Assembly: GCF_021028975.2 (NCBI RefSeq)
Contig: NC_059429.1
Span: 91,016,001 to 91,080,000, forward strand
DNA length: 64,000 nucleotides
Direction of reading: 5' to 3'
From: Sphaerodactylus townsendi
Taxonomy: Eukaryota
In this document: one piece after another, positions 1,256-55,477 of the stretch
How the letters are laid out: each line of letters starts with the position of its first letter
Numbering within the stretch: the stretch's first letter is position 1
Made by a program: the position numbers and the translations under genes
Notes under the pieces: model-generated
The model's database searches: none
What the model was told of the DNA's origin: nothing
The model's input: the letters and a program-made list of their open reading frames with translations, nothing else

Positions 1256-2802
1256 TATTTTTATTTATTTATTTATTTATTTATTAAACTTTTATACCGC
1301 CCCATCCTCCAGGGGCTCTGGGCGGTGTACAGCATAAAACATGGTAAAACAAGTCACTAAAATCTTTAAAACAGCGGTAACAAACATTAATAGTAATCCA
1401 TAAAATAGCTTAAAACTCATAAAACAGCAAAAAACCATAATACATAATAAAAGGCGTCCGACCCCAATTTAAAACCTACCCCCATGAGGGGGGATGGCAG
1501 GACCCCTCAATATGAGGGGACCCTGATGTAACTGCCCTAGGGGCAGGGCAGTAAGGGGGCACCATATCAGCAGCTGGACACTCCAAAGGCCCGGTGGAAC
1601 AACACAGTCTTACAGGCCCTGCGGAACTCACCCAGGTCCCGCAGGGCCCGGACAGCTGGAGGAAGGGTGTTCCACCAGGCCGGGGCCAGTGCCGTAAAGG
1701 TCCTGGCCCGCGTGGAGGCCAGCCGCATCATAGAGGGGCCGGGGGCCACCAGTAAGTTGGCCTCTGCAGAGCGCAGAGGCCGAGTTGGGACATATGGGGT
1801 GATGCGGTCCCGAAGGTACGAGGGTCCCAGGCCGCGCAAAGCCTTAAAGGTCAAAACCCACACCTTGAAGATGATTCGGAATTCAACCGGGAGCCAATGC
1901 AGCTGTCGCAACACAGGCTGGATGTGTTCTCTGAAGGCGCCTCCTGTGAGCAGGCGTGCTGCCGCATGTTGGACCAGTTTTAACTTCCGAATCAAACGCA
2001 AGGGAAGGCCGGCGTACAGCGAGTTACAATAGTCCAGCCTGGAGGTGACCGTTGCATGGATCACAGTGGCCAGATCCGCCTGGGAGAGGAAGGGAGCCAA
2101 CCGCCGGGCCTGGCGAAGATGGAAAAATGCAGTCCGGGTTGTATGGGCCACCTGGGTCTCCATTGAGAGAGACGAATCCAGGTGGACCCCCAGACTGCGA
2201 ACAGAGGGGGTCGGCGCCAATGAGACCCCCTCCCACACCGGCGGCTGGAAATCCCTAACCTCACCCCTGCGGTCTAGCCAGAGGATCTCCGTCTTCGATG
2301 GATTCAGTTGCAACCTGCTCTGCCGCAACCAACCAGCTACCGCCTCCAAACAATGCTGGAGAGCCGCAGGGGCGGCAACCGCTCCCCCCTCCATCAACAG
2401 AATGAGCTGAGTGTCATCAGCATATTGATGACAGATCAGCCCAAAGCTCCGCACCAACTGAGCAAGTGGTCGCATATAGATGTTAAATAATAGCGGGGAT
2501 AGCAGCGCTCCCTGCGGTACTCCGCACTGAAGCGGGCACCTCCGGGAGGCTTCATCCCCGCACCACACTTGCTGACTCCGGTCCCGGAGAAACGAGGCAA
2601 TCCACTGAAGGACAGTGCCCCGTACCCCGGAAGCGGCCAGGCGGTGGGTCAAAAGGTCGTGATCGACCATATCAAACGCTGCGGTAAGATCTAACAAAAC
2701 CAGCAGCGCCGATCCGCCCCGGTCGAGTTGCATACGGAGCGTGTCTGTGATGGCGACAAGAGCGGTCTCCGTCCCATGCCCAGCACGGAAGCCGGACTGG
2801 AA
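1256..2802 (-). mobile_element. L2-clade LINE, 5'-truncated, young
   Basis: RT ORF on the minus strand, a 3' UTR and an (ATAA)n tail at ~1256-1285. The 5' break falls at 2802 within FQSGFRAGHGTET. CpG-rich. Possible short TSD GTTTT. Confidence 0.9.
1567..2802 (-). CDS. LINE ORF2 reverse transcriptase, C-terminal part (open frame, 5'-truncated)
   Basis: Motifs QSGFR, LLDLTAAFDMVDH, GVPQGALLSPLLFNIY, YADDTQL and the L2-type tail SRLDYCNSL...LHWLPV. The frame stays open upstream of the tracked Met at 2733. Confidence 0.9.
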   Translation of the reverse strand, partial: FQSGFRAGHGTETALVAITDTLRMQLDRGGSALLVLLDLTAAFDMVDHDLLTHRLAASGVRGTVLQWIASFLRDRSQQVWCGDEASRRCPLQCGVPQGALLSPLLFNIYMRPLAQLVRSFGLICHQYADDTQLILLMEGGAVAAPAALQHCLEAVAGWLRQSRLQLNPSKTEILWLDRRGEVRDFQPPVWEGVSLAPTPSVRSLGVHLDSSLSMETQVAHTTRTAFFHLRQARRLAPFLSQADLATVIHATVTSRLDYCNSLYAGLPLRLIRKLKLVQHAAARLLTGGAFREHIQPVLRQLHWLPVEFRIIFKVWVLTFKALRGLGPSYLRDRITPYVPTRPLRSAEANLLVAPGPSMMRLASTRARTFTALAPAWWNTLPPAVRALRDLGEFRRACKTVLFHRAFGVSSC

Positions 2803-3530
2803 GTTTTGTGCTGGTGGTGGCTACATTGAAACACGGCTGTGTGGAATGTGATTTCTGTGCCATCTGTAAGCTAAAATTAGACTTTTATGCCAATGCAGCT
2901 GCATGGGCAAAGAATGCCAAAAAACTAGAAGCCGTGCATAAACGTAGCTTAGTGTAGGCGGGGAAATCTATGTATGTGCATAGAGATATAGCTGTGCAAA
3001 AAAAGTTTTTAAAAATTCCCACCCCAACACAACGCAACAGCCAATCAGGACAAGGAACAACAGAGTCGCTGAGCAGATCACGCGTTCGTGGGGAGTGCTG
3101 CACTGTTTGAAACCGTGATAAACACTGATGTCCTTATCAAACTCATGCTGTAGTGGGGAGGGTGAAACTGCAATGAAAAGGTTCTGTTTCTTTTGAAACC
3201 TGGTTGTATTTGGCTTTAATTTGCCAGTGGGGATTCCACCTTTATGAAACCCAGTGTAAAAATGCAGTTTTCAAATAAAAAATAATACTGTGGAGTTAAA
3301 CTTTGACAATAACTTTGTATTTTGCTCACTCATGCATGGATCAGATTATTTTAGTTATTTAATTTGTATGCTGCTTTTAAGCCCATCTGTGGTTTCCAGG
3401 ACTACTTGCAACATTTTTAAAAACACACAGTGATTTCAGTCACAATATAGTAAAGCAAAGTAAGGCACCATCCTGAGCTAATTAGTCCAAATTCTGGACT
3501 CATTTTTCCCCCTAGTTTTCCCTGGAAGAC

Positions 3531-15797: not shown

Positions 15798-16211
15798 CAG
15801 TGGCGAAGCTACAAGGGGATGGGGGGTGCACTGTGTACTGGGCGCATGCCTGGGGGGCCTGGAAAATCACCCCCAGGCCCCTCCCCTTTTCCCCCTCCCC
15901 CGTGGACCCCCCTTTCCCCTTCCCCCCTTAGTTCCTTTCCTTTTTGAGAACTTTTTCAGGCTGCAAAAGGCCTGTTTGCCGTAAAAACTCCTTGGGGAAC
16001 TACAGTTCCTAGGAGACCTTGGGGCTCACTTGGGAAGTATAGTTCCCATCAGGCTGTTTTTACTGAGAACAGTCCTTTTGCAGCCTGAAAAAGTTCTCAA
16101 AAAGGAAAGGAACTAAGGTAAGGGGGAAGGGGGTGCCGCGGGGGTCGCTGTGGGGAGGGGCAGAAAATATAAAATGTGCACCGGGCGCAGTTTGGCCCAG
16201 CTCTGCCTCTG
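15798..16211. mobile_element. non-autonomous hAT MITE with long internal inverted repeat
   Basis: TIRs CAGTGGCGAAGCT / AGCTCTGCCTCTG. 8-bp TSD CCTCCTGA / CCTCCCGA. Internal arms at ~15905-16010 and ~16030-16145. Confidence 0.85.
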
Positions 16212-21199: not shown

Positions 21200-21413
21200 T
21201 ATTGAAGGCTTTCACGGCTGGTTGTGGTGGGTTTTCCAGGCTGTGTAGCCGTGGTCTGGTAGATCTTATTCCTAACATTTTGCTTGCATCTGTGGCTGGC
21301 ATCTTCAGAGGTGTATCACAAAGAGAAGTCTGTAACAGTGTGTATGGAAATGTTAGGAACAAGATCTACCAGACCACAGCCACACAACTTGGAAAACCCA
21401 CCACAACCAGTTG
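21200..21413. mobile_element. Penelope-like element terminal remnant in inverted arrangement
   Basis: The minus-strand arm (CTCTGAAGATGCCAGCCACAGATGCAAGCAAAATGTTAGGAA...GTGAAAGCCTTCA) faces a plus-strand arm (GAAATGTTAGGAACAAGATCTACCAGACCAC...CAACCAG). Confidence 0.75.
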
Positions 21414-21612: not shown

Positions 21613-21930
21613 TGTAAAGGTTTCAATGGTGTTGATTCTCAGCACAGCCGCTTGGCCTTGACTGAATTCCAGGACTCGGGCGATGGGCCAGAAGCGGCGG
21701 CTATTTCCCTGGTAGAGGCCTTATCTCACAGAAAGAGATGAGAATGCCGTTCCCATGAGAATGGGACTGGGGAAACCGGGAGGGGGATGGGACGGAAAAG
21801 CTTATAACCTGTGGTTCTGGCGGGAGACTTCATTCCTGTCACGGCGTGTACGTGAGCTTTCTAAGATGTCTGAATAAACGGTCTTTCAACCAAAAAAGCC
21901 TTTTATTTCTGCTCTATGGAATTCCTTACA
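21613..21930 (+). repeat. 5' LTR of element A (318 bp)
   Basis: TGTAAAGG...CCTTACA. TATAA at 21803, initiator-like TCATTC at 21830, AATAAA at 21873. Confidence 0.97.
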
Positions 21931-21932
21931 TT

Positions 21933-21943
21933 GTGACAGGAAT
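21933..21943 (+). promoter_or_regulatory. self-priming PBS of element A
   Basis: GTGACAGGAAT is the exact reverse complement of ATTCCTGTCAC at 21832-21842, the predicted transcript start. Confidence 0.85.
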
Positions 21944-21989
21944 CCTCTTCATTTTACTTCTAAATATCAGTGGACCTCTGGGTTTCCGG

Positions 21990-24185
21990 CATGCAGAGGT
22001 TGAATATTCCTGAAACTGTGGAAGGCACGGTAGCCCCCATAGAGGGCTCCGAACCTTCCCTTCCTGACTTGGAAGAACCAGTGGGAGAACGGGTCTCGCT
22101 GGTAACTCTCTCCCGTCCTCGCCTCCACACGAGTCTTCCCTTACTTCGTTGGGATGAGGGACACGGAAACGATCATGCGGAGTTGCATGAGTCGTTTGGG
22201 GCGCTGTCTATGGATCGTGCGCCTGTGGATCGGATCTCTACCCGTTTTCGTGTGGATTACAAACCTCAGATGCAACGTGTCGCGGAGGAGATGGGTGTGA
22301 CCACCGTTCATGCGGCTACCCAGGAGTTCCATTGAACGGTTCCTTGACTTCGTATTTCGATGTTACGTATTCAAGAATCCACAGTGGCATAGCAATCGGG
22401 TCAATCGTCCCAAGACGCCAGTTGATACCGGGACTCAGTTAGCGGGATCGGGGATTGGGAGAAGAGGTTTCCGAGTCATTCTCAACCGGGCCCCTCAGAT
22501 CCGGGACGTAGCATAGCTGAAGCACAAGAGTATTCGCTGGAGTCGCGTCGGTGGACTTGAGGTGCTGCTCTCCGATGCCGAGGAGAATCCGAAGAAAGTC
22601 ATGACTCATCCGGATTTACTCCCGTCCAAAGAAAACTGGAACGAGGAAGTGGCCCCGACTGCAAGATGCCCAAGAAGGCGTGTGGAGCGTGAGCGCCAGG
22701 CTAAGTGGGAGGAGGAACGAGAACAGCTAAAAGAAAGCGTGAGAACCTGCAAAGAGACCGTGAAAACAGCGCAAAGCACATCTAAGCTTCGAACTGGACC
22801 GAGCCAAAAGACGGCGTTGCAACGGCAATATAAGCAGGATTTATCGATCCATGATAAGTGGTCCTGGAGCACTCTAGAATGGACCTGGAACGTCAACGCG
22901 AAGGCATTAAAGCCATCCGTCGACGCAGAGTGAACTAATCTGCGTAGCCATGCAACGACCGAAATAGCCAAATTGGACCGAGAAAAGCGGCCCTGCATGC
23001 GATCAAAGATGCCTTTATTCCCGCAAGGAGATAGGGTCATGAAGCTGTCTTGGAGCAGGAGTTGAAGAAACAGCGGGATAGGACCTTTGAGTTGGTACTT
23101 TCGCTTATCACCCAAAGCGCCCAACGATCAATGCCCCTCCTCGGAGCCACAGCTTCTAGGTCCTACTACTTATATGCACATTCCGCCTCCCAAGGACCAT
23201 GCTTTCGCCAAAGAGGGGTCAGCGGTGCGCCAGGCCCAGTGCCTCCATCAATCGATTACTGCGTCTTCCCCCTCCGCCGCATCAACCAGCGCCCAACCCG
23301 CAGTCTCCAGCGGGCCTCCAAGGGCCATGGAGAGGGGATACCACAGGCCCCTGATCCCACGTCTGCAAGTTTCGACGGGACCGCTTCTAAACTTCCCTAC
23401 TTCATTGCTGCAACTTCGATGCACAGTATGGAGGAGTATGGCTGACTTATATCGGTATTCTGACAGGCATTGAGAAATGCGGGACATCCCGGGTCTGTAC
23501 AAGATGGGGTGGCTGCTGACTGGTTTTGTGACTCTTTTGAGCTGCAAGCGGATATACTCGACAGTGGCTGCATTTCTTCAAGCCTTCACGGGCTCCTCGC
23601 TTCCAAGATCCGGACGCTGAAAATGAAGCCATCCGCGCCATAAAAATCTATTCGGCAGGGCAACCCATTACTTTTGCCGAATTTTGCTGCGTTAATTCGC
23701 GTGCGGGCGGCTGCTCGACTTCACTCCTGAGTGGCCTGAACGCATGAAATGTGGAGAATACTTCTCTTCGATGCCATTGACATCGTAAAACTTTCTGAAC
23801 GGTTGTTTCTCATCCGTATCCCTCGCGCATCTATTGCTGAATGGATCGAATTGGGATCTTCAAATGGCGGCGTTCGTTTGGATACGTCGGCTGGCTTTCG
23901 GTGTCGTCCACGCCCAAACCCCGCTTCTCTGTTTAACGCCTAGGCGACTGCGCAAGTCAAGCTCCAGCCGTCTCTACCGAAAACCACCTCCGAGCATGCG
24001 ATGCGTCATTTGGGATTGTGCGCTCTATTGGAGGAGGTGACCAGGGCCATCTGGCTGCCAACTGCCCGAAAAAAAACAGAAGTCCACCGCTCCGACCCCA
24101 CGCACCCCCCCTCTGCCAAATGGCAATATCGGAGATCGGGTCCTCCTCCAGCAGGCTCGTCTAAAGCTGTTGCCGAAGGCTAAGA
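21990..24185 (+). pseudogene. gag: gag of element A (frameshifted in this assembly)
   Basis: Coiled-coil segment RVERERQAKWEEEREQLKE, capsid-type motif ASFDGTASKLPYFI (~23365) and CCHC knuckle remnant GLC..(C)....GHLAANCPKK (~24010-24075). Bounds approximate. Confidence 0.75.
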
Positions 24186-24289
24186 TCCCGAGGAGAGTGG
24201 CTATTTGCCTCTCATCAGCACCCATGGATGTGGATCCTACTCCTGATGCTTGTTGAGTGAAGGCAGCACCCTGCCATTACTGTTCAAGC

Positions 24290-27200
24290 GGTTCTCGGCC
24301 AACCCTACTAAACGCATACATTCGCATTCCTAGCACTCACGAGCCCTCGCGATTCTGGCTGCTCCCATTTGCTTAATGCGGCCCCAAGTGGCTGAAGAGC
24401 TCTGGTTTTAGACCGAGTTCCTAATAGCAAAGCCCATACCGTTTCACATAAATGGACGGTAGCTCACTCGGAGCGAGAGGTCCGTTTCTCGATTCAAAAC
24501 GCGGCCTGTCGGCTTCTTCGTTGCTAGCTGACCATTTGGGAGAGGATTGGTTTTATACTTGCTCCAGTGGCCAAACTTATTCCATTGTCCTGGGCATGCC
24601 ATGGTTAAGTTGGTTACATGAACCAAATATTATTTGGAAAGAATGGATTCTAGAATTCCACTGATCCCCCATGTGGAGAAAGCATATGCATTGGGGAGAC
24701 AGCCCCACCATCCAAATGACACCGGAAACCCTGGTTTCTTCGGTTGTGCACATCCCAATGACTTTCAATTCCACAGGCATTCCACCCAGCTTACCAGGAC
24801 TTGTAGCCAGAGTGTTTCAGGAGAACAGGAATGTGATCAATACTGCCCCCATAGAGACACTGACTGCAAAATTCATATGTATTACAACCGGGGCTCAACT
24901 ACACCAAGGGTAGAATCTATCGTTATGAGTTCTCAGCGAAGAGAAGGAAACTCCGTGCGCTTCTTAGATAAAAACCTTGCTCGCTGATTCATCCAGCATT
25001 GAGGCGCTACTAAACATGCACTTACGCTGCTCCTGTCCTATTTGTAAAGAAAAGCGATCGGGTCTTTAAAGACTTTGTACTGATTACCGAGGGATTAAAT
25101 GCTGTTTCCATGTCAATAAATACCCTTTGCCCTTAATCAAGGACCTCTTAGATGCATTGTTGGGCAAAGGGACGCATTCTTTACTTCGAAGTTGGATTTG
25201 AGGGAAGCTCACTACTACAGAGTCAGGATTGCCGAGGAAGGCTACCTGAACATTTAACAGCATTTAATACTAAATTTGGACAGTTATGAATACTTAATTA
25301 TGCCATTCGGGTTAGCTTGGGGCACCCCGGCGCATTCATAGCCCTCATCAATGAAGTTTTGCATGACTTACTATATAAAGGAGTAGTTGTGTAATGTAGG
25401 CGATTGTTTTAATTTATTCACAATAAACCATGGAGGGCATGAGGCTTTGGTTCGGGAAGTATTGCAGCGTTTACTCAACAACTCCTCTTCGCTAAAACTG
25501 TCTAGAGTGCTGTTTTCATCAATCCTCCATAGACTATTTAGGCTGCCAGGATCTCATCTGAGGGTTTAAAAAATGGATCCTCGCGAAGATTGACGTTGAT
25601 CCTCAATGGCCTGCCCCACACCAACCGGAAGGAGCTCCAATCCTTCCCCTAGGATTTGCTAATTTTTATCGTGATTTTATGCACCCCAATTTTGCTGAAC
25701 TAACCCTTCCCCACTCTCACAGACCTTTACTACGCATCTAAGGGGTAAAGACCTCACAGGCTACCAAAGCCCGGGGCTCCCCTCCTTGGTCTCAGGAATG
25801 TCAAACAGCCTTCCAGCTTTTGAAATCGGCTTTCCACTACCGATGGCCTGTCTTAAAACACCCCGACCCAGACCTTCGCTTTCATGGTTCCGCGTGCGAT
25901 GCTTTGGACAAAGGCGCTTGGCGCAGCCCTGTTGCAGAGAAATAAAGATGGTAGGCTTGTTTCCGTATGCTTATTTATCAAAAGAAATTCTCCGGCTCAG
26001 AACTCAACTTGGACGTAGGGGATAAAGAGACTGCTGCCCATCGGGTAAGCGCTTTCCCACTTCTGAAGGTCACTTTGGCTTGAGGGGGCTAAACGCTCCA
26101 GGTTTGGTCGGATCACAAGAACTTTGGCTGCCCTCTCCACCCCCCCTCAGAATGTCTGCAAAGGAAACAACTTCGTTGAGGCCGATTTCTTTCCTGTTTT
26201 TCTTTCCTGTCCATTTTTCCCCCGGAAAAACCAAATAAACTTCTTTGATGCTTTGTCGGCGCCTTCCTCGAGGAGGGGTGGAGCTGCTTCTACGAGACAT
26301 CCCGTGCACTGTTCTCTCCCCCTCCCAACTAGGGCTGGTCACGTCACTTTCGATTCTCAGAGTCATCGCTCCTCCTCCATGCAGCCCGTTCCTTCCAGCC
26401 TGGTCTACGCCTTCCTGCGGGAACTTCGAGGTAGCGGGTCTTGGCGGGAACTTCGCCGGCGGATAGTGAAGGCGACTCCCAGTTGCGCTTTGGTGAATGG
26501 AGTTTTGGAAGCCCGGGGGGGGAATTGTTGGTACGTGCCTCCTTCGTAGAAAGCAAGTTCTCGAAGCCTGTCATGATGCCCTTTCGGCTGGACATTTTGG
26601 CTTTCTCAAAACACTCGCATTTCAGCCCGCCGTCAATTCTGGTGGCAACGCCATCGCGTAAAGAACATTTGAGAAACGCTTATATCGAAGGGGTGCTTTC
26701 TGTTTGTGCGTGAGGCCAAATCCATTCAGGGGAAAGCCCCATGGACTGGCTTCAAAACCTCCTCGGTTGCCTCCCGTCCCTGGGAAGTTATCTCAATGGA
26801 TTTTATTACGGATTTACCAGAGGAGTTTGCAAGCAGAAACACAGTCTTGTGGGGGGGTGGTGGACCCTATTCTCCAAACAAAAAAGCCCATTTCATTCCC
26901 TGCACCTCCATTCCCTCGGCTCCTAAATTAGGCGCTACTGTTCATTCAACATATATATCGTCTACACTCCTCCCCCCTCAAGGTGGTGTCGACCAGCTTG
27001 GGCCTCAATTCATTTTCAAAATTCTGGAAAGCTTTCCTGGGCTTATTGGGGGGGCCACCCCGGCCGGTTGCCGTCGCCCTACCATGTTCAAAGTGGCGGT
27101 GAAGGTCGGAAAGCAAAGCGAACAGAACTCTTGAACAGATATTTACGTTGTTACACCAACTATCACCAAGACAACTGGTCGCGATTTAATTCCGTTTGCA

Positions 27201-27950
27201 GAATATGCCTACAACAATGCCGTTCATAAAGGCGATGCGCAAAAAAAAACCCCTTGAAATTGTGTCTGGCGGCTCCTTCCACGCCATTGCCCGCCAACTA
27301 CCCGTGAATGCTTCAATCCTCAGAATTCCAGCAATGGATTTCATCTCTGTGGCGGAGGGGTGGAAAACGGTTCAGACCTCTGCTTTTGCAACAAGCTAAA
27401 AGATTCCCCCCCCAAAAGTTCCAGGCGGATAAACATCGTTCTGACTTTCCTTTGCGTGTTGGGGCTTGGGTCTGATTTGTCATACGCCTAAAACCTCAGA
27501 AGGCGATACATAAATTTCTCGGGGAAACCTGGGCAAAAAGTTCGTTAGGACCTTTTAGAATTACAAAAGTGCGATTAATGATGTTACTGCCCGGTTAGAT
27601 TTGCCTAGTGGATTAAAGTAATATCCATCCTGTCTTTCATTCCAGCTTGCTCAAGGAGGCTCCCGCTTCCCGACATGCCTGGCACGACACCTCCGGAAAT
27701 ACCCCGCCGACTATAATACCGATGGCCACAAGCATTATGAAATTGACACCCGGATCCTGGACTCTGCGTTTTAATGCGCTTAATGCGCCATTGCAATACT
27801 TGGTTTCTTGGGTGGGGTATTCCTCTGGGTATGGCGAATTCAATGGAATTATTATTCAGAAAATATTGACGCCCCCTCCCTTATTTCTGCTTTCCACTTC
27901 GTACCTTCCCGCACAAACCAGGGGAGAAGTTTTTCTTAGGGAGAGCAGCA
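24290..27950 (+). pseudogene. pol: pol of element A: protease, RT, RNase H, integrase, chromodomain (frameshifted in this assembly)
   Basis: DSGCS (~24350), KYPLPLIKDLLDAL and KLDLREA (~25120-25210), LIMPFGL, PWEVISMDFITDLP, YLRCYTNYHQDNW, GPFRI, LQYLVSWVGY. Confidence 0.9.
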
Positions 27951-27951
27951 G

Positions 27952-28277
27952 TGTAAAGGTTTCGAATGGTGTTGATTGCTCAACTGGCATGTCGCATGGC
28001 ATTCGACTGAATTCCAGGACTTCGAGGCGATTGGGCCAGAAGCGTGACTATTTCCCTGGTAGAGGCCTTATCTCACAGAAAGAGATGAGAATGCCGTTCC
28101 CATGAGAATGGGACTGGGGAAACCGGGAGGGGGATGGGACGGAAAAGCTTATAACCTGTGGTTCTGGCGGGAGACTTCATTCCTGTCACGGCGTGTACGT
28201 GAGCTTTCTAAGATGTCTGAATAAACGGTCTTTCAACCAAAAAAGCCTTTTATTTCTGCTCTATGGAATTCCTTACA
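27952..28277 (+). repeat. 3' LTR of element A
   Basis: The last 230 bp are identical to 21701-21930; the first ~95 bp differ by scattered indels and substitutions. Confidence 0.97.
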
Positions 28278-42821: not shown

Positions 42822-42927
42822 TCAACAGTTTTTATTAAAGGGATAAAAATGGGGGTACACCAGCACACAATAAAACAATAGAACACTGGTGTACCCCCAT
42901 TTTTATCCCTTTAATAAAAACTGTTGA
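42822..42927. repeat. perfect 42-bp inverted repeat with 22-nt spacer
   Basis: 42822-42863 is the exact reverse complement of 42886-42927. Confidence 0.95.
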
Positions 42928-44860: not shown

Positions 44861-45977
44861 ATGTATCAGTCTAGCATGGGTTTGGCCACATCTAGTTTGA
44901 GTGTTTTAATGTCACCATAAACCATCCCAACAATTCCATCCTAAGTAGAATGATACTCTTCTAATCGCTTTGACTTTTATTGTTTTAGAGAGCTACACTT
45001 CTGCTTAGGATGCTAATGTACATATCACTTAACAGTGGCATGCTGGAACATGTCAGTCAGTGTATGTACATATACAATCAACTCACTGGCTGGAACCCAA
45101 GATTTACCCAAATGTTTTAATTCTAGTGTTTATGTATTTGAATGGTTTTAGTCCTTAAAGATGAGCTGTTGTTTATATTGTTGTATGTGTCAGGCCTGTA
45201 CCATTCCAGTTGGGCAATTTGCATGTCCACACCCCGGTTACAGATGGCTCAGCCATTATCATTGCTCAAGGCTACAGAGGCCTCCCACTGCTTGCGAAGT
45301 AACTAGCCTAAGAGTGCTTAGCCATTCACTCTTATCTGCCTTTCTGAAGGAGTGAACTGTCTGCTGTTGCTCCCACTGTCTTTTCACATGCTGATATTAT
45401 GGGAATGTGCGGGTGGGGGATGTCAAGGGTTGAACTAAACTGTAAGGTATATACCAGGGATCAGAGAGCCAAACCCCTCAGTTTCAGCTATCTGAACCTG
45501 GGATGACACAGTTCCAATAAAGCTTTTGAAATCTTCCTGAGTCTTGTTGATGACTGTAGTAACAGACCCTTACAGTATGGCCCTTTTCACACACAAGGTT
45601 TGCTGTGGAATTACTGCAACACGCATTGACATCCCGACCTTTTTGTTGCTGGTTCGCTTGCCGCCGACATGTCATTCGCTATGACTTCTTGCCAGTTTTT
45701 TTTTTTTTTCGTGAGTCTGGAACCGCATCTGAATCCAGAAACCCCGATAGTTTGCATTGCTGCGGAATGCAATACAAATGAGAGTTCTGATTGGCTGCTT
45801 AGCCGTTCCTGGACATGTCGTTTGTGACGTTTGGCCCTGTCATCACGTTGTCATGCTGTGATGTGGCCACGAGATGTCGACACACCAATCTTCCCATTGG
45901 CTGACGTTACCTCGAGATGTCTCACATTGAGTGTGCCAAGGCACTGTCCCTTGACACAGCATCGGCAGAAGCGCCCA

Positions 45978-46409
45978 CTACACATTCTGTCGCCCTGAGC
46001 TGGTGCAGCAGGCTAATGCTTCTGTCCCCCCCCCCCATATCTGTCCCAGCTCTTCAAAGTAAGGCATGGTCCGAGGACCATTACCGGAAGTCTTGTTGGG
46101 CTGATTAACTCTTTTGAAGTCACGTTTTAAAGTTTTTGCTTTTGTCCTACACTCAAGGGCAGTTCTCTTGTGCCCCCTGAGGTGCATCTCTGCTGCCACC
46201 TTCTCAAAAACATCTAATAAGTTTCTATAGCTGGACTTTAGGGAGCACTGTACTTCCTCCTCTTCCCATACTGCAATCAGATCCCTTGTCTCATCATTCC
46301 GCCATGACACACCCCTCCCAAGAGCTTTGTCTGAGTTGGTGGCTGAGCTTTTCGGTCCATTCATTTGATCTCCCCGGGCACGGACGTAACACAGCCAATG
46401 AGCTACCAA
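45978..46409 (-). CDS. Myb/SANT-like (trihelix, Myb_DNA-bind_4-type) DNA-binding protein of Harbinger
   Basis: RGVSWRNDETRDLIAVWEEEEVQ...VFEKVAAEM..RGHKRTALECRTKAKTLKRDFK...MPYFEEL. C-terminal frame is uncertain at a homopolymer near 46026-46036. Confidence 0.85.
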   Translation of the reverse strand: MVAHWLCYVRARGDQMNGPKSSATNSDKALGRGVSWRNDETRDLIAVWEEEEVQCSLKSSYRNLLDVFEKVAAEMHLRGHKRTALECRTKAKTLKRDFKRVNQPNKTSGNGPRTMPYFEELGQIWGGGTEALACCTSSGRQNV

Positions 46410-46777
46410 TTAAGCATTATCTCACAGTCTCACAGCACCGTTGCGCAGAGATCTTGTTTTCTTGAGACCTCGCTGCAGCGAGACAATGCAATGCCTGACC
46501 AAGGGTGAGGAGAGGCGGGAGGCGAGTGAGACGGAAACAGAACAGTAAAATCTGCGCATGCAACTGGCAAATTCCTTGCTCCTCCCGATTGGCTGGGAGA
46601 AATCGCATCACTGCGGGGGCATGATTCCTAAAACCTGCTCGGTAGCATGACGTTGCCCACATAGGGGCAGAAATATGGAGGGAAACCGTTTTATCTGAAA
46701 AAGTTGCAGAAGCATTGAGCAACAGGAAAAATGTGAGGCGATGCCTCGAATGGGTGACAGAGTAGGGGTCGAACTGC

Positions 46778-47108
46778 TGTAAGGGTGGGGGTTAGTTTCT
46801 GCTCTTTCTGCCTGGCCTTCCAGCGATATCCTCGTTCTTGGGCTTCGCGTCCGGGGTGGTTTGTGGCCTTAACCTTGTGCTGTGATTATCTTGTGTGTTT
46901 GAAGCTTGTTTCTGTTCTGTCATGGGAATTCTGCTGGGACGTTTGGGGGAGGTGGCTGAAGGTTCCGTAAAAGCGACACCTGAAGCCCGGGAAAGTCAGA
47001 ATCTGGTGATCCCGGTATTGGCGACATTACTGAAGTTTCTTATGAAATAAACGTACATTGAACTCAGTTGCCCTTTCGTCGTTCGAAGTCCTTTTGAGGT
47101 TCCTTACA
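46778..47108 (+). repeat. 5' LTR of element B (331 bp)
   Basis: Colinear with 53371-53679, with extra small insertions. AATAAA at ~47046. Confidence 0.95.
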
Positions 47109-47110
47109 TT

Positions 47111-47123
47111 ATGCGCGGATTCT
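47111..47123 (+). promoter_or_regulatory. putative self-priming PBS of element B
   Basis: ATGC(GC)GGATTCT is complementary to AGAATCCGCAT in the 3' LTR (53585-53595) if a 2-nt insertion is allowed. Confidence 0.65.
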
Positions 47124-47199
47124 CACTTCTCTCTATCTTCGGATTGATTTTGGGTCACTACACCTTGTCCATCCGGTTTTGTGGGATCCCCCTGATACC

Positions 47200-50100
47200 C
47201 AATCCAGACATGTAGGGATTTCCTGAACACCGAGAGCTCGCCGTGACTTGGAAGGTGATTAAGACTCGTGGTAGCCCCCAAAGAGAGGGCTCCATATCTT
47301 CCTTCCAATAACAACGCGGTCTCCTCTTGGAGGGAGCCAGCGGAACCCGGCCTCCCTGGTGACTCCTCTCTAAGCCCCTCCTCGCTCAGCCGGAGCTTTC
47401 AGGGCCTTCCTCCAACTGCATGAGCAAATGGAAGAAGCCCCCCTGATGGCTCGGCACACTGTTTCGGCCGGCCAGCAAGTAAGCGCCAGGATTTCGTACC
47501 GCATCCTGGTGGGCGAGTGGAGGTCGATGGGATCATGCTTCTGGGGGGCAACATTCTCACCACCCGCCAGCATAAGGGATTTCATAAACCGGTGATGCAA
47601 TGTGTCGAGGGAGGAAATCGGGTATCAAATCCATCCACGGGACACAGCAAGAGACCCCTGGGCAAGATTCCTTCTGGATCAATACCTCGAGGATCCCTCT
47701 CCCAAGATCACTGAGTAGAGCACCGAGCACGCCTACGAAAGGTTTATACTCTCTAACGCACTCCAGGATCTCCTCCTCCTCTGAGGGAGGAAGTGTTGGA
47801 GTTACCTAACACTTCCAGACTCAGGGCTCCACTTTCACAGAAGATGCCCGCATCTCGCTAACCCTCCGGACTTCATCGGATCTCGAGGAAGCGTTAGCCA
47901 GCTGCCTCTTGGAGCGGTGCCCGGCCTCCCAGATCTTGACTCTTGGATGGGGCTACCAGCCTCTACCGCCTATGCGGATGCAACGGCCCTCCTGGTTAAT
48001 CGGATCTTTGGGGAACAGATGGAGGCTCTCGAGAGAACCAAACGGGACTGGGAGCAGGAACGGATGGCTCTCGTGAAAGCCAGCGCAGCGAAGCCTTAGA
48101 ACAAGAACGTGAACAGCAGCCAGGGAGCCGTGGAAGTGTAGCGAACTTTCATCAGAGAAGGATGTCCTAAGAGATCAGTTCCTCAAAGACCTCACTTCCC
48201 GTGGACCGAAGTCCCAGAACACCTCCCTGACTCGAGCTCCAGCGCCAACGCCAATGCCTTTAAAGCGCTGGAAACCAAGGAGTAGTCGAGGCGGAACTGC
48301 AACGTAGGAGAACGGGATAGACTTGGCAACGCGAATGGGAGGCTCCCTCACACCGCCGTGGGAGAGGGAGTTGGCGTGGCAAGGGAGGCTGCACGCCCGG
48401 AGAGATCTCCCGCCACCAGTGGCTTCCTACTCCAGCACCGGTGGTGCAACTCACCTGGCCTATTCATCAGCCTCGGGATCGTACTCACTCCCCCACCCCA
48501 GCTGCAGAGTCCTACTCCCCGTGCAAACCTCCAGCCCCGGGTCCAGGGGGGCGCAACCACCGCCTGCACAAGCTCCCGCCCCAGTCTCCACGGAAGCTGG
48601 TAGGGGTTACCCTCGCCTTCCGCCATTCCTGCACGCTTTGGATGGGACAGCTTCCAGTGTTGCCATATTTCATCCTTACAACTCGGGACGCACACATGCT
48701 TTGAGTTTGATGGGATTTTATAGGTCCTAAGCTTTCGAGAAGCTGTTGCGTGACATCGGGTCCGTGGCTGGATGGAGACGCTGAGCAGAATGGTTTTTCT
48801 GTGGAATTGTAATTGAAGTAGCAGGGGGCCCTGGAACTTCAAACCGTGGCAGCTTACTTCAAGGGGTTGCAGTAAACTTCTGTTTTCAAGATCCGAAGAG
48901 GTGAGCAAAGCCATCCAAGACTGTTAAAACTCTCAAGCAGGGGAAATAGGCCAAACTCTTTGCAGAGTTCACCCGAGTAATTCCGGTTGGCCACGTAAGC
49001 AAGCTCCCCGCGAGTCTCGCCCTAACGCATGAAATGTGAATACTACTCCACCATGCTGTTGAGGGAGGAAATCTGCACCTGGGTACATGCATGCGTGCGT
49101 GGAACCCCAGACCATTGCCAGAGTGGGATTACAACCGGGCAACCTTATTGCGGCCCGCCTTTAATCACTCCAAGATGGGGGAAAACCGCCCACCAAACTC
49201 CCTCCTGCCAAACCCTTCTGCCAAGCAAACGGGTAACGACGGTCGCCGGCCTCTCCGCCGGTAAGGCGGAAAGTGCAGTGACCGCCGTCAGCCAATCCAC
49301 CTTCTGGAGCACCGCCTGCCGCCAAGGCTGCCTCATTGTGGCCAGGGCCCGGGCCCTACATGGCGGCCAACTGGGCCGTTCTAAAAAAACAAAAGGTGCG
49401 CCTGTCCCTCAGCCCCCCGCAAGTCAACGGCACTTTAACTCCTCAAGTAAAGGACAGGTCCTCGGGGGCCTGTACAAGGAGCTGCGAAACCACCTGGCTA
49501 TGATGACGCAGTCTGGGGAGACCGGCTGACACCGGAACTTGAAGGTGCAGCCTTTCACAGTGGTCCCATGTATCGTGGAAGAGTTTCCTGGGCGCCAGGA
49601 TGCGGGTGGAGTGAAGGGCTGAAGCCCTCTATAACTATTAAGTGACCACGCCAACCGTAACACCTCCAAGCACACCCATTATTCTGGCACGAAGCTCAGG
49701 AGGATTCCTGCTGGCTGTTGCTAATTTCCACTTGCCTTTATGAAGCCCTCCCAGGTGGCTGGACGCAACTAGGACTCGAACGTGAGTAGCATTGGCTTCA
49801 AAACCACTCCAATTCTCTACTTCAAGTGGATGTGGTAGCCCGTTGGGCACCAACGGTCCCGGCCCCAAGCTTCTGAAGACTCCAAACCAGTGCTTCTAAG
49901 TATGTGCTGAATAACACTGGGAAAGATCGTAGCTTCATTTTGGCTCCAGTCGCCAAACATCCCAGGTAGTGCTGGGCATGCCCTGGCTCCTCTCCCATGA
50001 ACCCACCTCATCTTCTGGGGACAACGAGATAGTCTCGGGATTCCCAATTCCGGATCCCCCTCTGTGTGGGAATTCATTACATGCACGTAGGGGTGAGCCG

Positions 50101-52287
50101 CACCGGCAGAGGGGTTGGCTAAAGAAGACCCTTCAGACTCCCCAGGCAATGGTTTTAGCCAGCCACCCCAGCTCCAGAATCCGCTGGCCAGAGTTCCCAA
50201 ACAGTACTTGGGACTTAGCCAAAAGTCTTTGCAGAACAGGAATGCGCGCATCAACTCCCCTGCATAGGGACACAGACTGTAAAATCCTTCTTTGGTCCCA
50301 GGGGCCCAAACTCCTAAAAGGTAGAATATGAATAATGGATGAGCTCCAACTGAGGAGAAGGAGCTTCGGAGCTCTGTTCTCGAAGTAAGAATTCACTGGC
50401 TCAAGGTTTCATTCGGGCTGAAAGCACTCAAGAGCACCTAATAGCTTATAAACCCGCTTTATTTTGTGAAAAAAAGAAAGATGGGAACCCTACGCTCTGT
50501 GCACTGGATTATCGTGGTCTCAACGCTTGTTTCATTGTCAAATAAATACCCCTTGCCCCTCATCAAGGACCTGCTCGATGCCTTGGGAAAGGGGCGTATT
50601 TCTTTACCAAACTGGGATCTGAGGGAGGCTTATTACCTGAAAGTACCTAATCTGTTGAGGGTTTTGTGGAGCATTTAACAGCATTTCTAATACCAAATTT
50701 GGCCAGTATGAATATCTTGTAATGCCATTCGATTAGTCCGCTCCCCATGGGCTTTCTAAGTGGCTTCACCTCTATTTAAATGGACGTGCTTCTACAAGAT
50801 TTTCTGGTTTAAAGGGGTGGTGGTGTATTTCGGATGATCGCTTCTAATATATCTCCCAAACGATGTGGAAGAGCATGAACGCTTTTGGTCCGGGCTGTGT
50901 TGCAAACGCCTGTTCGATAACTCACCTCTTTCAAGGGCTAAACTGTCCAAAATGTGCTTTCCACCAAACCTCCATGGATTACCTAGGGTGCATTGGATCC
51001 TCTCCAGAGGGCCTGGAGATGGACCCGGCAAAAGTTGCAGCCTGTAGTGAATTGGCCGATACCCACCACCCAGAAGTGAACTTCAATCGCTTCTAGGTTT
51101 TGGTGGAACTTTTATCTAGATTTTATCCCCCCCCAATTCTGCTAAGGGTGCTTGGCTCTACCACTCACAGACTTTACTATTGAGGTACTAAAGGAAAGGG
51201 GCCCCAGGCATCAAAACAAACCGGGGCTCCCCTTTCCTGGTCCCCTGAGTGTCAAAAAATTAGTTTCTAGGCTCTTTAAGACAGCTTTTACTACTGGAAC
51301 CCATTTTGAAACACCCAGTTCCCACTTTGCCTTTCACTCCGTGTATGTCGACAAGCTTCCGATAAAGCCCTAGGAGCAGCACTCTTGCAGAAAAAATAAA
51401 GATAACAAACTCTGTGACCGTGGTGCTTCATTTTTTTATCAAAAAAAACTGTCCTGCCCCTGGAACTCAACTGGACGGTTAGGGATAAAGAAACTGCAGC
51501 CATTAAGTGAGGTTTCTTTATTCACGTATGCATTGGCTGGACAGTATGCGTTTCTCCGCTCCAAGTCTGGTCAATGGACTTTCATTATAAAACTTGGCAG
51601 CTTTGTCTACTCCACCTCAAAATGTCGGCCAAACAATTGAGATGGGCGGATTTTTTTCTCCAGATTCCAACTTCTTACCTGTCCATTTTTCCCCTGGTAA
51701 TAGTAACAAATTAGCTGGGACGCCTCTGTCCTGCCTCCCCCCCAGGGGATCTTGACACTTCACGGCAAGCATGGCCCTCATACTATTCTCTACACCTTTC
51801 CTCAATTGGGGGTTGGTGGTAACCCGATCTCCAGACAGTTACGCTCTCAAACATTCCCCATGTGAAGGTCCCGGGATCGCTTTCTTTATCCCCGTTTTTT
51901 TTTTCTACACTCATCACCTGGAGGAGGCGTGGATGACAGGAGGTTCCGAAAGAGGGAATCTGACCACCTCCCTGCAGCCGGTGCAAGTGGGGAGTGTGGG
52001 AGATGGGGTGGATTGGCTGGTACGTCTCCGACCGCCTTATCGTAAGGGCAGATTCTACTGGTTGAGAGCCGCGACGCCCGACAAGCGGGACACCTTTGGA
52101 TTTTTTGAAAAAACGCTTTCACCTACTTCTAGGGAGGCAGTTTTGGTGGTGCACCATGCGCAAGGGACATTGAGGCATACATAAAAGGGTGTCCGGACGC
52201 GGCGCGCAGAGGTTGCTAAGGCCATCCCTGGTAAGCCACACGGATTACTAAGCACCCCATCCCCATGGCTCGGCTGCGCCGTGGCAA
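47200..52287 (+). pseudogene. gag and PR/RT/RNase H of element B (frameshifted in this assembly)
   Basis: ALERTKRDWEQERMAL coiled coil, DGTASSVAIF (~48640), knuckle remnant (~49325-49375), LSNKYPLPLIKDLLDALGKGR, DLREAYY, GLEMDPAKVAA. Confidence 0.85.
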
Positions 52288-53388
52288 GTGATTTCCATGG
52301 ATTTCATCACAGATCTCCCCGAAAGCCATGGTAATACAGTACTTTGGGTAGTGGTGGACCTCTTTTCCAAACAGGCGCACTTTGTTCCATGTTCCACCAT
52401 TCTCTCGGCGCCTAAATTGGCCAAATTATTTATTCAACATATCTATCGTTTGCATTCATCGCTGGAGAGAGTGATCTCCGACAGGGGCCCACAGTTCATA
52501 TCTAAGTTTTGGAAAGCGTTCCTGGAGTTGTTGGGAACGGCCTCAGCTGTGGCTGCCCCGTACCACGTGCAAAGTGATGGCCAGACCGAACGGACCAACA
52601 GAACGCTAGAGCAGTACCTACGTTGCTACACCAACTATCATCAGGATAACTGGGCGGAGCTTCTTCCCTTCGCCGAGTATGCCTACAACAACGCGGTTCA
52701 CAGCAGCACCAATAAAACTCCGTTTGAAGTGGTCTCGGGTCGTTCGTTTCCCCCGTTACCCCAGCTCCCCGATCCTGCGCTCCAACCCCCTGACTTTGGT
52801 GACTGGATCCGGTCTTTAGCTGAAGGCTGGAAATCCGTCTCTTCCTCGCTCTCGCAAGCGCAGGAAGCCCCAAAAAAACAAGCGGACAAACATAGAATGG
52901 ATTTTCCTCTGCAAGTGGGGGCGTGGGTTTATTTGTCTACCAAAAACCTTAGGGATGTGCATAAATATTCTAAGCTAGGCAAGAAATTCATAGGCCTGTT
53001 TAGGATCACCCAGGTGATCAACGATGTGACTGCTCGGTTAGAATTGCCCAATTCTCTCAGTAATATTCACCTTGTATTTCATTCTAGCTTACTCAAGCGG
53101 GCTCCAGATTCAGATGCTTGGCACGACCCAATGGAGGTTCCCCCGCCGGTGATCATTGATGGCCACAAACACTACAAAATCGACGCTATTCTGGATTCTT
53201 GTTACATACGCAAACGTTTGCAATATTTGGTGTCCTGGGTGGGATATCCCTCGGGCCATAATCAATGGGTGTATGTTGAAAACATTGACGCCCCCCCTTT
53301 GATCGCTGCTTTTCATAAGGCTTTCCCTCATAAACCGGGGGGAGAGGGGGCTTTTGTAGAGGAGGCGGAGTGTAAGGGTGGGGGTTAG
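52288..53388 (+). CDS. pol: integrase core, GPY/F-like module and chromodomain (intact 3' part of pol)
   Basis: DDE triad SMDFITDLP / ISDRGPQF / DGQTERTN, KKFIGLFRI and chromodomain HYKIDAILDS...LQYLVSWVGYP...NQW. Uninterrupted 366 codons; the stop lies inside the 3' LTR. Confidence 0.95.
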   Translation: MISMDFITDLPESHGNTVLWVVVDLFSKQAHFVPCSTILSAPKLAKLFIQHIYRLHSSLERVISDRGPQFISKFWKAFLELLGTASAVAAPYHVQSDGQTERTNRTLEQYLRCYTNYHQDNWAELLPFAEYAYNNAVHSSTNKTPFEVVSGRSFPPLPQLPDPALQPPDFGDWIRSLAEGWKSVSSSLSQAQEAPKKQADKHRMDFPLQVGAWVYLSTKNLRDVHKYSKLGKKFIGLFRITQVINDVTARLELPNSLSNIHLVFHSSLLKRAPDSDAWHDPMEVPPPVIIDGHKHYKIDAILDSCYIRKRLQYLVSWVGYPSGHNQWVYVENIDAPPLIAAFHKAFPHKPGGEGAFVEEAECKGGG

Positions 53389-53679
53389 TTTCTGCTCTTT
53401 CTGCCTGGCCTTGGCGCATTCCTCATTCTGGGCTTCGTGCCCGGGGTGGTTGTGGCCTTAACCTTGCTGTGATTATCTTGTGTGTTTGAAGCTTGTTTCT
53501 GTTCTGTCGTGGGAATTCTGCTGGGACGTTTGGGGGAGGTGGCTGAAGGTTCCGTAAAAGCGACACCTGAAGCCCGGGAAAGTCAGAATCCGCATCCCGT
53601 GTATTGCGATCATTGAAGTTTATGAAATAAACGTACTGAACTCAGTTCCTTTGTTTCGAGTCCTTTGAGGTTCCTTACA
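53371..53679 (+). repeat. 3' LTR of element B (309 bp)
   Basis: TGTAAGGG...TTCCTTACA, direct repeat of 46778-47108. Confidence 0.95.
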
Positions 53680-55477
53680 TTGAGGTTCCAGAGCTAGTAT
53701 GTGCAAACAACAAGCAGAAACCATGACGACCACAAATATTTAATCCAGAACAAACCGTGTGTGCGAAAAGGGCCTATGACAGGTTTTAATAATTTTAAAA
53801 TGTGATTTCTACTATGTATGTTTTCATTTGTTAGTTGCTATAGTGGCCCCTGTAAGGGCAGAAAAATGGGATATAAATTTTGTAAAACAAAAATTAAAGA
53901 TACAGCAGTTTCAAACAGCCTTGCAAGCTTAAGCAATCATGTGAATTGTCTGTTCCTCCTTTGCACAAGGTGTGAGGAAAATGAGTCTACTCTGCTTTAT
54001 TTCATGAAGTCTTGCTCAGTAGATGAGACACCCACGCAAGTTCCTGTAATATTAACAAAGGTGTATCTTTCCTGCAGACAAGAAAGGGCCCAAGGTATGC
54101 ATGAAATATAGTTCAGGGAAAGCCAGGCAATTGTCTGAAGCATCAGGACTGATGCTTTTACCGTATGCAGAAATCTAATTTGCAGCCTTTGATAATGCAA
54201 TCATCCCCAGTTCCTCTGAAGCTCCCACGTCTGTTCTGCTCTTTTTTCCTACCTAACCCGTCTGCAGCATCTGACTTTCTTTGTTGAAAAAAACACACAT
54301 CTGTGAAAAGAGATTAGCTTCACATTATTAGCCCACTGGCAACCAGCCAAGCCATTCCTTTCCCTCTTCTTGTGTAAGCACCACAGTATTTCTGAGCTTT
54401 GCGCTTTTGTATCTATGTGTGTGTGGCATGACTGTCTGTCCCCCTTGTATTTTCATAAAGGACACCATTGCTGACATGCCATGCTGTAGATGCTTTCCAT
54501 TTCACCAGGGTGCTAGACAGTTGGCATCCTTTATCATGAAAAACTGAACCTTCTGTCTCTGCTGACCTAGGTGTTAATCTCTCTTTTAAAAATTGGACCA
54601 AACAGCTGGTTAGGAAATGCTCAGTGGTAATATTTGGGGACTGGTAGGTCTGAATGCAGAAACAGCTTCGGTGGGGGGGGGTAATTGTTTCTTGCAAGAG
54701 TTTTGAATATTAATTACAATAGCAGCTTTGAAAGAGGAACCATATACCCCAAGCTTGGCTGAAGTACGGTCTTGGGAGGCACATGTCTCCCTGAGCAATG
54801 GGACTCATTCTTAAGGCCTAGGTACGATTCTAGGTAATTTTAATCAGAAGTAAATTCCCCTTTATTAAATGGCCCTTATGCCAAGGTAAGTATGCATAGG
54901 TTCACAACCTGAGCCACAATACTTAAATGACAAACCAGTCAATCATCTGGAATGAGCAGATGCTCCCCAATTTACTCCTTTTCTTTGTCAAGGGATTAGA
55001 TTTTTCATGTTTTGCAGTTGGTTTTGGATATTTGTCTGTATTGTGTACACGTAGTATATGATTTTAATATGCAATTTATGCAATGCTTAAGCATGCAATG
55101 TACATTATTTATACATACAACAAACATATAATATACAAGGCTGATTTATTGATGCAGAAATAACGCTGAAAATGCATACATTTTAGGGGAGAAAAATTCA
55201 CTGTGAGAAAATAGAGTGACATGCAAATGTCACTCACAGGTTCAGTTTGCACTTGGGAGAATAAAAATCAAAATGGAGATTTGTGGGCCAAAAGATCAGA
55301 GGCGAGCAGTTCTGCTAAGATTTCCAAAAGCTGGGATTCCTGATTATTAGAGGCTGCAAATATAATCAGGTAAGGAACGTGTCCCTCAGATACCTTAGTC
55401 TCAGATTATTTAGGGTTTTAATGGTAATAACTGTCTTGATCAGGAGCTGAAACCATGGCAACTGTTTATTTGCTAAT

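What the first reader, a model, noticed from the sequence alone, without database searches (positions are those of the whole stretch)
47109..53595. Element B shows the same self-priming geometry with a different, co-varied sequence
Seen: PBS ATGC[GC]GGATTCT again begins 2 nt after the LTR and pairs with AGAATCCGCAT (53585-53595). That motif begins at TC-A about 30 nt after a TATA-like GTAAAA. A and B share position and length but not sequence, which amounts to compensatory covariation between two families in one window. Caveat: the match needs a 2-nt bulge, and the 5' LTR copy of the motif is garbled; I attribute both to read error.
Basis: partly seen in the sequence, partly recalled or inferred. 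Interest (0 to 1): 0.7.

Follow-up and report, generated by a model that had tools for sequence, protein, structure and literature searches.

The report
Self-priming retrotransposon with fold-back fossils
This jumping gene has, where DNA copying starts, eleven letters that pair with its own end repeat, so it likely primes itself with the tip of its own RNA, as already known for its wider family; some sister copies carry backwards run-on copies of the end repeat that likely record misfires of that step.

Summary
Element B is a Ty3/gypsy chromovirus. The 11-nt word after LTR+TT pairs perfectly with an LTR word in the family: 75 copies carry it, the window's bulged form occurs once. The window's 5' half shows long-read-type insertion errors. 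Ten different 11-mers keep the same geometry across families in this genome, and a sister subfamily of B changes both sides together. This is the self-priming layout known for the Tf1/sushi group, vertebrates included. The covariation is better read as templated than as selected compensation: where the PBS runs on, it copies the copy's own LTR backwards (26 of 27 readable cases), up to a 545-bp palindrome with a near-perfect target duplication. PBS+1 is almost always C, and in family A PBS+2 is hypervariable with no tree signal, as cap copying plus untemplated addition would give. No RNA start was measured. The scan noted self-priming in at least 11 genomes before, and fold-backs once, in a fungus. 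Known kind, with good fossil evidence.

The parts
46778..47108 (+). 5' LTR of element B (331 nt here, mostly 307-310 in clean copies; insertion-rich)
46998..47010 (+). garbled 5' LTR copy of the R-start word
   Evidence: contigs of all four runs break off at 47003-47005
47109..47110 (+). TT spacer between LTR end and PBS
   Evidence: same spacer in the 11 perfectly paired elements
47111..47123 (+). primer-binding site (13 letters in this assembly; 11 in 75 other copies)
47124..47124 (+). C at PBS+1, not complementary to the LTR base before the R word; likely copy of the RNA cap (inferred)
49577..51122 (+). stretch holding the reverse transcriptase region; broken by many indels here
   Evidence: 78% match to L006, whose frame hits RVT_1 at E 2.6e-29; 0 of 23 window fragments hit Pfam
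51275..52251 (+). RNase H and integrase zinc-finger region, broken by indels here
   Evidence: 76% match to L048, whose frame hits RT_RNaseH, Integrase_H2C2, rve in this order
52252..53388 (+). integrase core, Tf2-1-like SH3 domain, chromodomain (378 aa open frame)
   Evidence: Pfam rve, SH3_Tf2-1, Chromo over cut-off; best PDB match Ty3-G Gag-Pol, E 7.7e-31
53358..53370 (+). polypurine tract
   Evidence: same last five letters before the 3' LTR in 9 of 30 loci
53371..53679 (+). 3' LTR (309 nt, clean)
   Evidence: 96-99% identical to the other full-length matches
53554..53559 (+). TATA-like GTAAAA about 30 nt before the R word
   Evidence: TATAA or other AT-rich words at the same place in most sister families
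53585..53595 (+). R-start word, predicted self-primer
53600..53603 (+). TGTA, predicted to pair with the LTR-terminal TACA (inner helix of the Tf1-type structure)
   Evidence: in the minimum-energy fold of 6 of 10 representatives, those of the A, B and C families
53626..53631 (+). AATAAA polyadenylation signal
53680..53689 (+). right junction: no target duplication; 6-nt filler plus 4 letters shared with the host, together repeating the LTR end
45576..46777 (+). host repeat into which B inserted; it resumes at 53686-53774
   Evidence: 7 of 7 other copies fetched join the two sides directly
21613..28277 (+). element A: R word 21832-21842, PBS 21933-21943, perfect 11-nt pairing, 5-bp target duplication

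Best explanation
Element B is a Ty3/gypsy chromovirus whose primer-binding site is complementary to an 11-nt word in its own LTR, and it likely primes reverse transcription Tf1-style with the first 11 nt of its own RNA. Inferred steps: transcription starts at the A of the word, about 30 nt after the TATA-like box; the RNA 5' end pairs with the PBS two letters behind the LTR; RNase H would cut after nt 11; the plus strand later copies this primer, then the cap (C) and an untemplated letter, so the PBS is rewritten from the R start and the two covary without needing selection on two independent changes. Because the plus strand ends in the complement of the R word, it sometimes pairs with an R word (its own strand, a second cDNA or the 3' LTR of the RNA) and copies U3 backwards; the run-on copies, deleted mini-elements and the palindrome are likely such misfires, fixed by integration. 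The window copy's bulge is assembly error.
For: 75 vs 1 copies. Perfect complement at offset +2 in 11 of 19 LTR-bounded elements found among 40 SH3_Tf2-1 loci followed up; ten distinct words; in 10 representatives 9 of 11 pair positions vary and all stay Watson-Crick, position 1 is always A. Within family B, PBS ATGCAG goes with LTR word AGAATCTGCAT in 11 of 17 readable junctions, against 1 of 47 for the main PBS. L118 keeps 9 PBS letters behind a 3' LTR, as Tf1 cDNA does (PMC11042837, passages). PBS+1 is C in 39 of 39 family A rows and 99 of 100 listed A' rows; family A PBS+2 has all four letters, diversity 0.75, above 525 of 525 background columns, 15 changes on the tree vs 15.7 shuffled.
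Against: No RNA start, cleavage or cDNA was observed. The third Tf1 duplex (behind the PBS) is not better than shuffled in A or B (44-143 of 200 shuffles as low; 3-4 of 200 only in two other families). 8 of 19 LTR-bounded elements had partial (3) or no readable (5) pairing. 6 of 17 ATGCAG junctions and 4 copies with PBS ATCGCAGTTCT do not match their own LTR. The 10 representatives were chosen for pairing, and the Fisher value ignores kinship. In family B the +2..+6 diversity is not outside background (28-131 of 526 columns as high). The family A tree is poorly resolved (5 of 27 branches well supported). The letter after a run-on is C in only 11 of 24 cases, weak support for cap copying. The inner-joint contig of L111 has 42+26 letters, under the tool's 31-letter rule, and runs X1 and X4 are one sample that may be the assembly's source.
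Confidence: 0.85

Rival explanations
1. Self-priming is right, but the run-on copies come from RNAs that began further upstream: a longer primer was cut off and copied, with no fold-back or mis-priming on an R word.
For: Short run-ons of 1-4 nt followed by C and then normal internal sequence (L062, L068, L069, L228, L230) look like start-site wobble plus cap; L067 and L126 also end in C. Alternative Tf2 start sites are known (PMC5341516, passages).
Against: L111 and L071 stop exactly at the LTR's first base, and L111 has an integrase-type end with a near-perfect duplication; L223 runs through U3, the PPT and about 170 nt of internal sequence. Likely true for the short class only.
Confidence: 0.3
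2. The pairing is a structural helix kept by selection, priming uses a tRNA or tRNA half, and run-ons are later DNA-level template switches at an 11-bp inverted repeat in the chromosome.
For: No direct test of the primer here; tRNA halves were not compared; chromosomal fold-back at short inverted repeats is a known process (PMC4689423, listing only).
Against: No TGG (complement of tRNA CCA; recalled rule) at the site; ten different words; run-ons start exactly at the PBS end and jump into distant pol or gag sequence, as strand-transfer errors do (deletions from the PBS are known in MLV, PMC3185545, passage); L111's duplication flanks the inverted end, so it predates insertion; at least 6 of 75 B junctions are affected.
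Confidence: 0.07
3. The match is chance or an artefact of a noisy assembly.
For: The window copy and several others are indel-rich; missed adapters in long reads can make false palindromes (recalled).
Against: 75 exact copies vs 0 control; 4 of 200,000 shuffles; short-read contigs carry the L111 joints with 0 differences; the L111 arms differ by 4%.
Confidence: 0.02

Closest known systems
Tf1/Tf2 of Schizosaccharomyces pombe, Tj1, Tosmo1-3 (PMC7175516, PMC4600332, bioRxiv 2022.12.06.519325; passages read)
   Same: Chromodomain integrase; 11-nt word at the predicted RNA start complementary to the PBS; inner helix next to the LTR end; PBS copy retained at a cDNA end and untemplated additions (PMC11042837, passages).
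   Different: Vertebrate host; the duplex behind the PBS is not supported in A or B; here the evidence is from genomic copies, not experiments.
Vertebrate Tf1/sushi group (sushi-ichi, Amn-ichi/ni/san; GyDB V-clade)
   Same: [quoted passage not shown]
   Different: Copy-level tallies of run-ons, PBS+1/+2 and palindromic by-products were not found in the papers I could search.
Deletions starting at the PBS in retroviral replication (MLV; PMC3185545, passage)
   Same: Errors of plus-strand transfer that join the PBS to distant internal sequence.
   Different: Here an inverted copy of U3 lies between, which needs a PBS complementary to the element's own LTR.

Membership tests
Ty3/gypsy chromovirus | TG...CA LTRs, PPT, order RT-RNase H-integrase | tested here: met
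   (RT and RNase H placed through two sister copies; window fragments gave no hit)
Ty3/gypsy chromovirus | chromodomain at the integrase C-terminus | tested here: met
   Pfam Chromo 37.3 bits, cut-off 25.1
Ty3/gypsy chromovirus | 5-bp target duplication | tested here: inconclusive
   present in 6 solo LTRs and 3 LTR pairs of the family; absent at the window copy
Tf1/sushi group | PBS complementary to about 11 nt in the element's own LTR, no tRNA-type site | tested here: met
   tRNA halves not compared
Tf1/sushi group | that word is the RNA 5' end | not testable with these tools
   no RNA holder listed; TATA-like spacing and run-on pattern are indirect
Tf1/sushi group | three-duplex 'pretzel' | tested here: inconclusive
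   central and inner helices in the folds; third duplex not above shuffles in A or B
Tf1/sushi group | RNase H cleavage after nt 11; primer kept and copied | tested here: inconclusive
   cleavage untested; copying supported by L118 and run-ons
Tf1/sushi group | RT-integrase tree places it with sushi/Amn elements | not tested
   no named reference sequences were fetched

The most novel reading that the evidence does not exclude
Integrated copies keep a per-copy record of the primer's 5' end: PBS, then a cap-templated C, then an untemplated letter rewritten at many jumps, so the RNA start and self-priming can be read from genomes alone. Self-priming also carries a built-in failure that tRNA priming lacks: the plus strand pairs back on the R word and yields integrase-inserted U3-U3 palindromes and deleted mini-elements (about 1% of family A' junctions, at least 6 of 75 in B), a route from an LTR element to inverted-repeat elements; the cap C would act as a guard against it.
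Probability: 0.45. Interest if true: 0.55.

Novelty: new member of a known kind. Interest (0 to 1): 0.33.

Why it matters
The mechanism was shown by experiment only in yeast Tf1 and predicted from complementarity elsewhere. These copies add evidence of another kind in a vertebrate: replication errors that follow each copy's own LTR letters and are expected only if the plus strand ends in the complement of the R start. The same signatures (run-ons, PBS+1 C, variable PBS+2) give a genome-only test for self-priming in other lineages, and warn that PBS/R covariation is likely templated and should not be scored as selected RNA covariation.

Tried and rejected
No RNA holder listed; no bearing on expression. 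ARAGORN found no tRNA gene in the window; no tRNA set was compared. Pfam on 23 short window fragments of gag-pol: no hit, put down to frameshifts. Third pretzel duplex: not supported in A or B. Hypervariability behind the PBS in family B: not outside background. No run-on in family A: 0 of 39. 21 of 40 SH3 loci gave no LTR pair; 110 of the 150 listed were not followed. Patterns ending in H drop matches with G there, so counts are lower bounds and the A' rate (18 over 1,339) mixes two patterns. Papers not held: Atwood-Moore 2006 and 2005, Lin and Levin 1997, Butler 2001, Esnault and Levin 2015; they may already describe cap copying or fold-backs. Ten searches listed no paper on fold-back by-products of self-priming LTR elements; this library lacks most subscription papers. 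No supplements were opened. No sister LTR was found for the PBS variant ATCGCAGTTCT (4 copies), and no genome search for that LTR word was run.

Full report
1. What is there. Element B runs from 46778 to 53679 with LTRs at 46778-47108 and 53371-53679. Its 3' open frame carries integrase core, SH3_Tf2-1 and chromodomain (best PDB match Ty3-G). RT, RNase H and the integrase zinc finger were placed through two internally deleted sister copies. It is a Ty3/gypsy chromovirus. Four LTR pairs of the family are 98.7-99.7% identical, so the family is young.

2. The bulge. An exact search for LTR end, TT and the 11-nt word gave 75 copies and 0 in the reversed control; the 13-letter form gave only the window. 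Against 9 single copies the window's first 923 bases show 46-58 extra-letter events and 5-23 missing, while three clean control pairs show 0-1 (the other five control pairs include garbled copies) and the window's last 1.4 kb shows 1-3. Short-read contigs from 3 of 4 runs lack two letters at 47113 (mostly paralogues). The insertion bias is that of unpolished long reads (recalled).

3. Not chance. 4 of 200,000 shuffled LTRs hold the word; only offset +2 of 1,490 has an 11-mer complement in the LTR of copy L007. 27 of 30 LTR copies keep the word. In family A, 23 of 30 copies have a perfect match in their own 5' LTR.

4. Covariation. I followed 40 of 150 listed SH3_Tf2-1 loci. 19 gave an LTR pair; 11 had a perfect complement of 11 or more letters starting two letters behind the LTR, 85-101 nt from its end, 3 were partial and 5 unreadable or unmatched. 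With A, B and a B sister this makes ten different words. In 10 representatives (8 words, chosen for pairing) 9 of 11 positions vary with all pairs kept; position 1 is always A. Inside family B, the ATGCAG site goes with the matching LTR word in 11 of 17 readable junctions against 1 of 47 for the main site; the 6 mismatches are likely later CpG decay (kinship not corrected). The primer helix and an inner TGTA/TACA helix form in the folds; the third Tf1 duplex is not above shuffles in A or B.

5. Run-on copies. In some copies the PBS goes on as the reverse complement of that copy's own U3. When PBS+1 is not C it complements the copy's own LTR base in 26 of 27 readable junctions. The B search demanded G, so the fair test is family A', where G or A was allowed: 9 of 9 and 6 of 6 follow the own base (18 matches, 17 distinct, 15 readable). 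Exact run-ons of 7-45 nt occur in L028, L048, L067, L072, L126, L184, L223, L227, L238, L239, most then jumping into gag or pol or back to the PBS. L028/L020 and L232 have perfect 5-bp duplications. L111 is a 545-bp palindrome: LTR, TT, PBS, all of U3 backwards (96% identical arms), ending at the LTR's first base, flanks AACAG and AACGG. Contigs of X1, X2 and X4 cover both outer junctions and, with 0 differences and single-copy depth, the inner joint (42+26 letters, under the tool's 31 rule). L071 also ends at the LTR start; L223 runs on through the PPT into about 170 nt of internal sequence, which needs a plus-sense template beyond strong-stop DNA. L118 is a 3' LTR followed by TT, 9 PBS letters and host DNA. 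Rates: at least 6 of 75 in B, 18 against 1,339 in A' (two patterns), 0 of 39 in A.

6. Letters behind the PBS. PBS+1 is C in 39 of 39 A rows and 99 of the 100 listed A' rows, although the LTR base before the word is mostly C too and cannot pair. In family A, +2 has all four letters (diversity 0.75, above all 525 background columns; 25 distinct rows), no clustering on a weakly resolved tree of 30 copies (15 changes vs 15.7) and no link to a haplotype about 10 nt away. In family B the +2..+6 diversity is not outside background. RT copying a cap as C is recalled; untemplated addition by Tf1 RT is in PMC11042837 and PMC3185545 (passages).

7. Mechanism. Shown: complementarity, position, covariation, run-ons that copy the own LTR, constant C, variable +2 in A. 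Inferred: RNA start at the word, cleavage after nt 11, primer copied into the PBS, cap and untemplated letters, mis-pairing of the plus-strand end on an R word. On this reading a change in R passes to the PBS within a few jumps, so covariation is templated. Short run-ons may instead come from RNAs starting 1-4 nt upstream (rival 1).

8. Known work. Self-priming defines the Tf1/sushi group in fungi, vertebrates and mosses (PMC6317226, bioRxiv 2022.12.06.519325, PMC4600332, PMC7175516: passages). Tf1 cDNA keeps a PBS copy at its 3' end (PMC11042837, passages). PMC3601003, PMC5341516, PMC4131045, PMC3185545: passages only. The primary papers were not held, so prior description of the cap C or of fold-backs cannot be excluded; ten searches listed none. 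The scan's notes hold 31 findings on Tf1/sushi self-priming in at least 11 genomes, one with fold-back by-products in a fungus (unchecked AI notes, seen after my own result); no look-alike of this LTR.

9. Verdict. Real, correctly read, of a known kind. The copy-level fossils are the added value. Interest 0.33; most novel reading 0.45 likely, worth 0.55.

Noticed in passing
window 46777 and 53680-53689: Element B has no target duplication. Seven other copies of the host repeat join the two flanks directly; the right junction holds a short filler that repeats the LTR end and shares 4 letters with the host, like a repair-made joint.
   Followed up: partly
L240-L243 (L241=L026, L242=L006); L050: Four B-type LTRs are followed by a different site, ATCGCAGTTCT, that does not match their own R word; L050 has an LTR word close to its complement but the standard PBS. 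Possibly priming or recombination between co-packaged sister RNAs; unexplained.
   Followed up: partly
G000:C1:132699954-132700575; table 5c: Two B LTRs head to tail a few letters apart, and a contig joining LTR end to LTR start: tandem or circle-junction type.
   Followed up: no
L028/L020, L070, L232: Internally deleted mini-elements with both LTRs (TRIM-like) that begin with a run-on; two have perfect 5-bp duplications.
   Followed up: partly
family A': At least 1,339 junctions; three sampled LTR pairs are 99.3-100% identical: a very recent burst.
   Followed up: no
L010, L023, L027: LTR ends followed by TT without a PBS and, for L023 and L027, without a target duplication; possibly unprocessed ends.
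   Followed up: no
L004: This copy is deletion-rich against its sisters (26 events), so assembly errors in this genome run in both directions.
   Followed up: no
window 1567-2820 (-): Open frame of 417 aa with an RVT_1 domain, likely a LINE fragment.
   Followed up: no
window 15926-16118, 21218-21410, 42822-42927: Short inverted-repeat elements (63-nt arms 67 nt apart, twice; 42-nt perfect arms).
   Followed up: no
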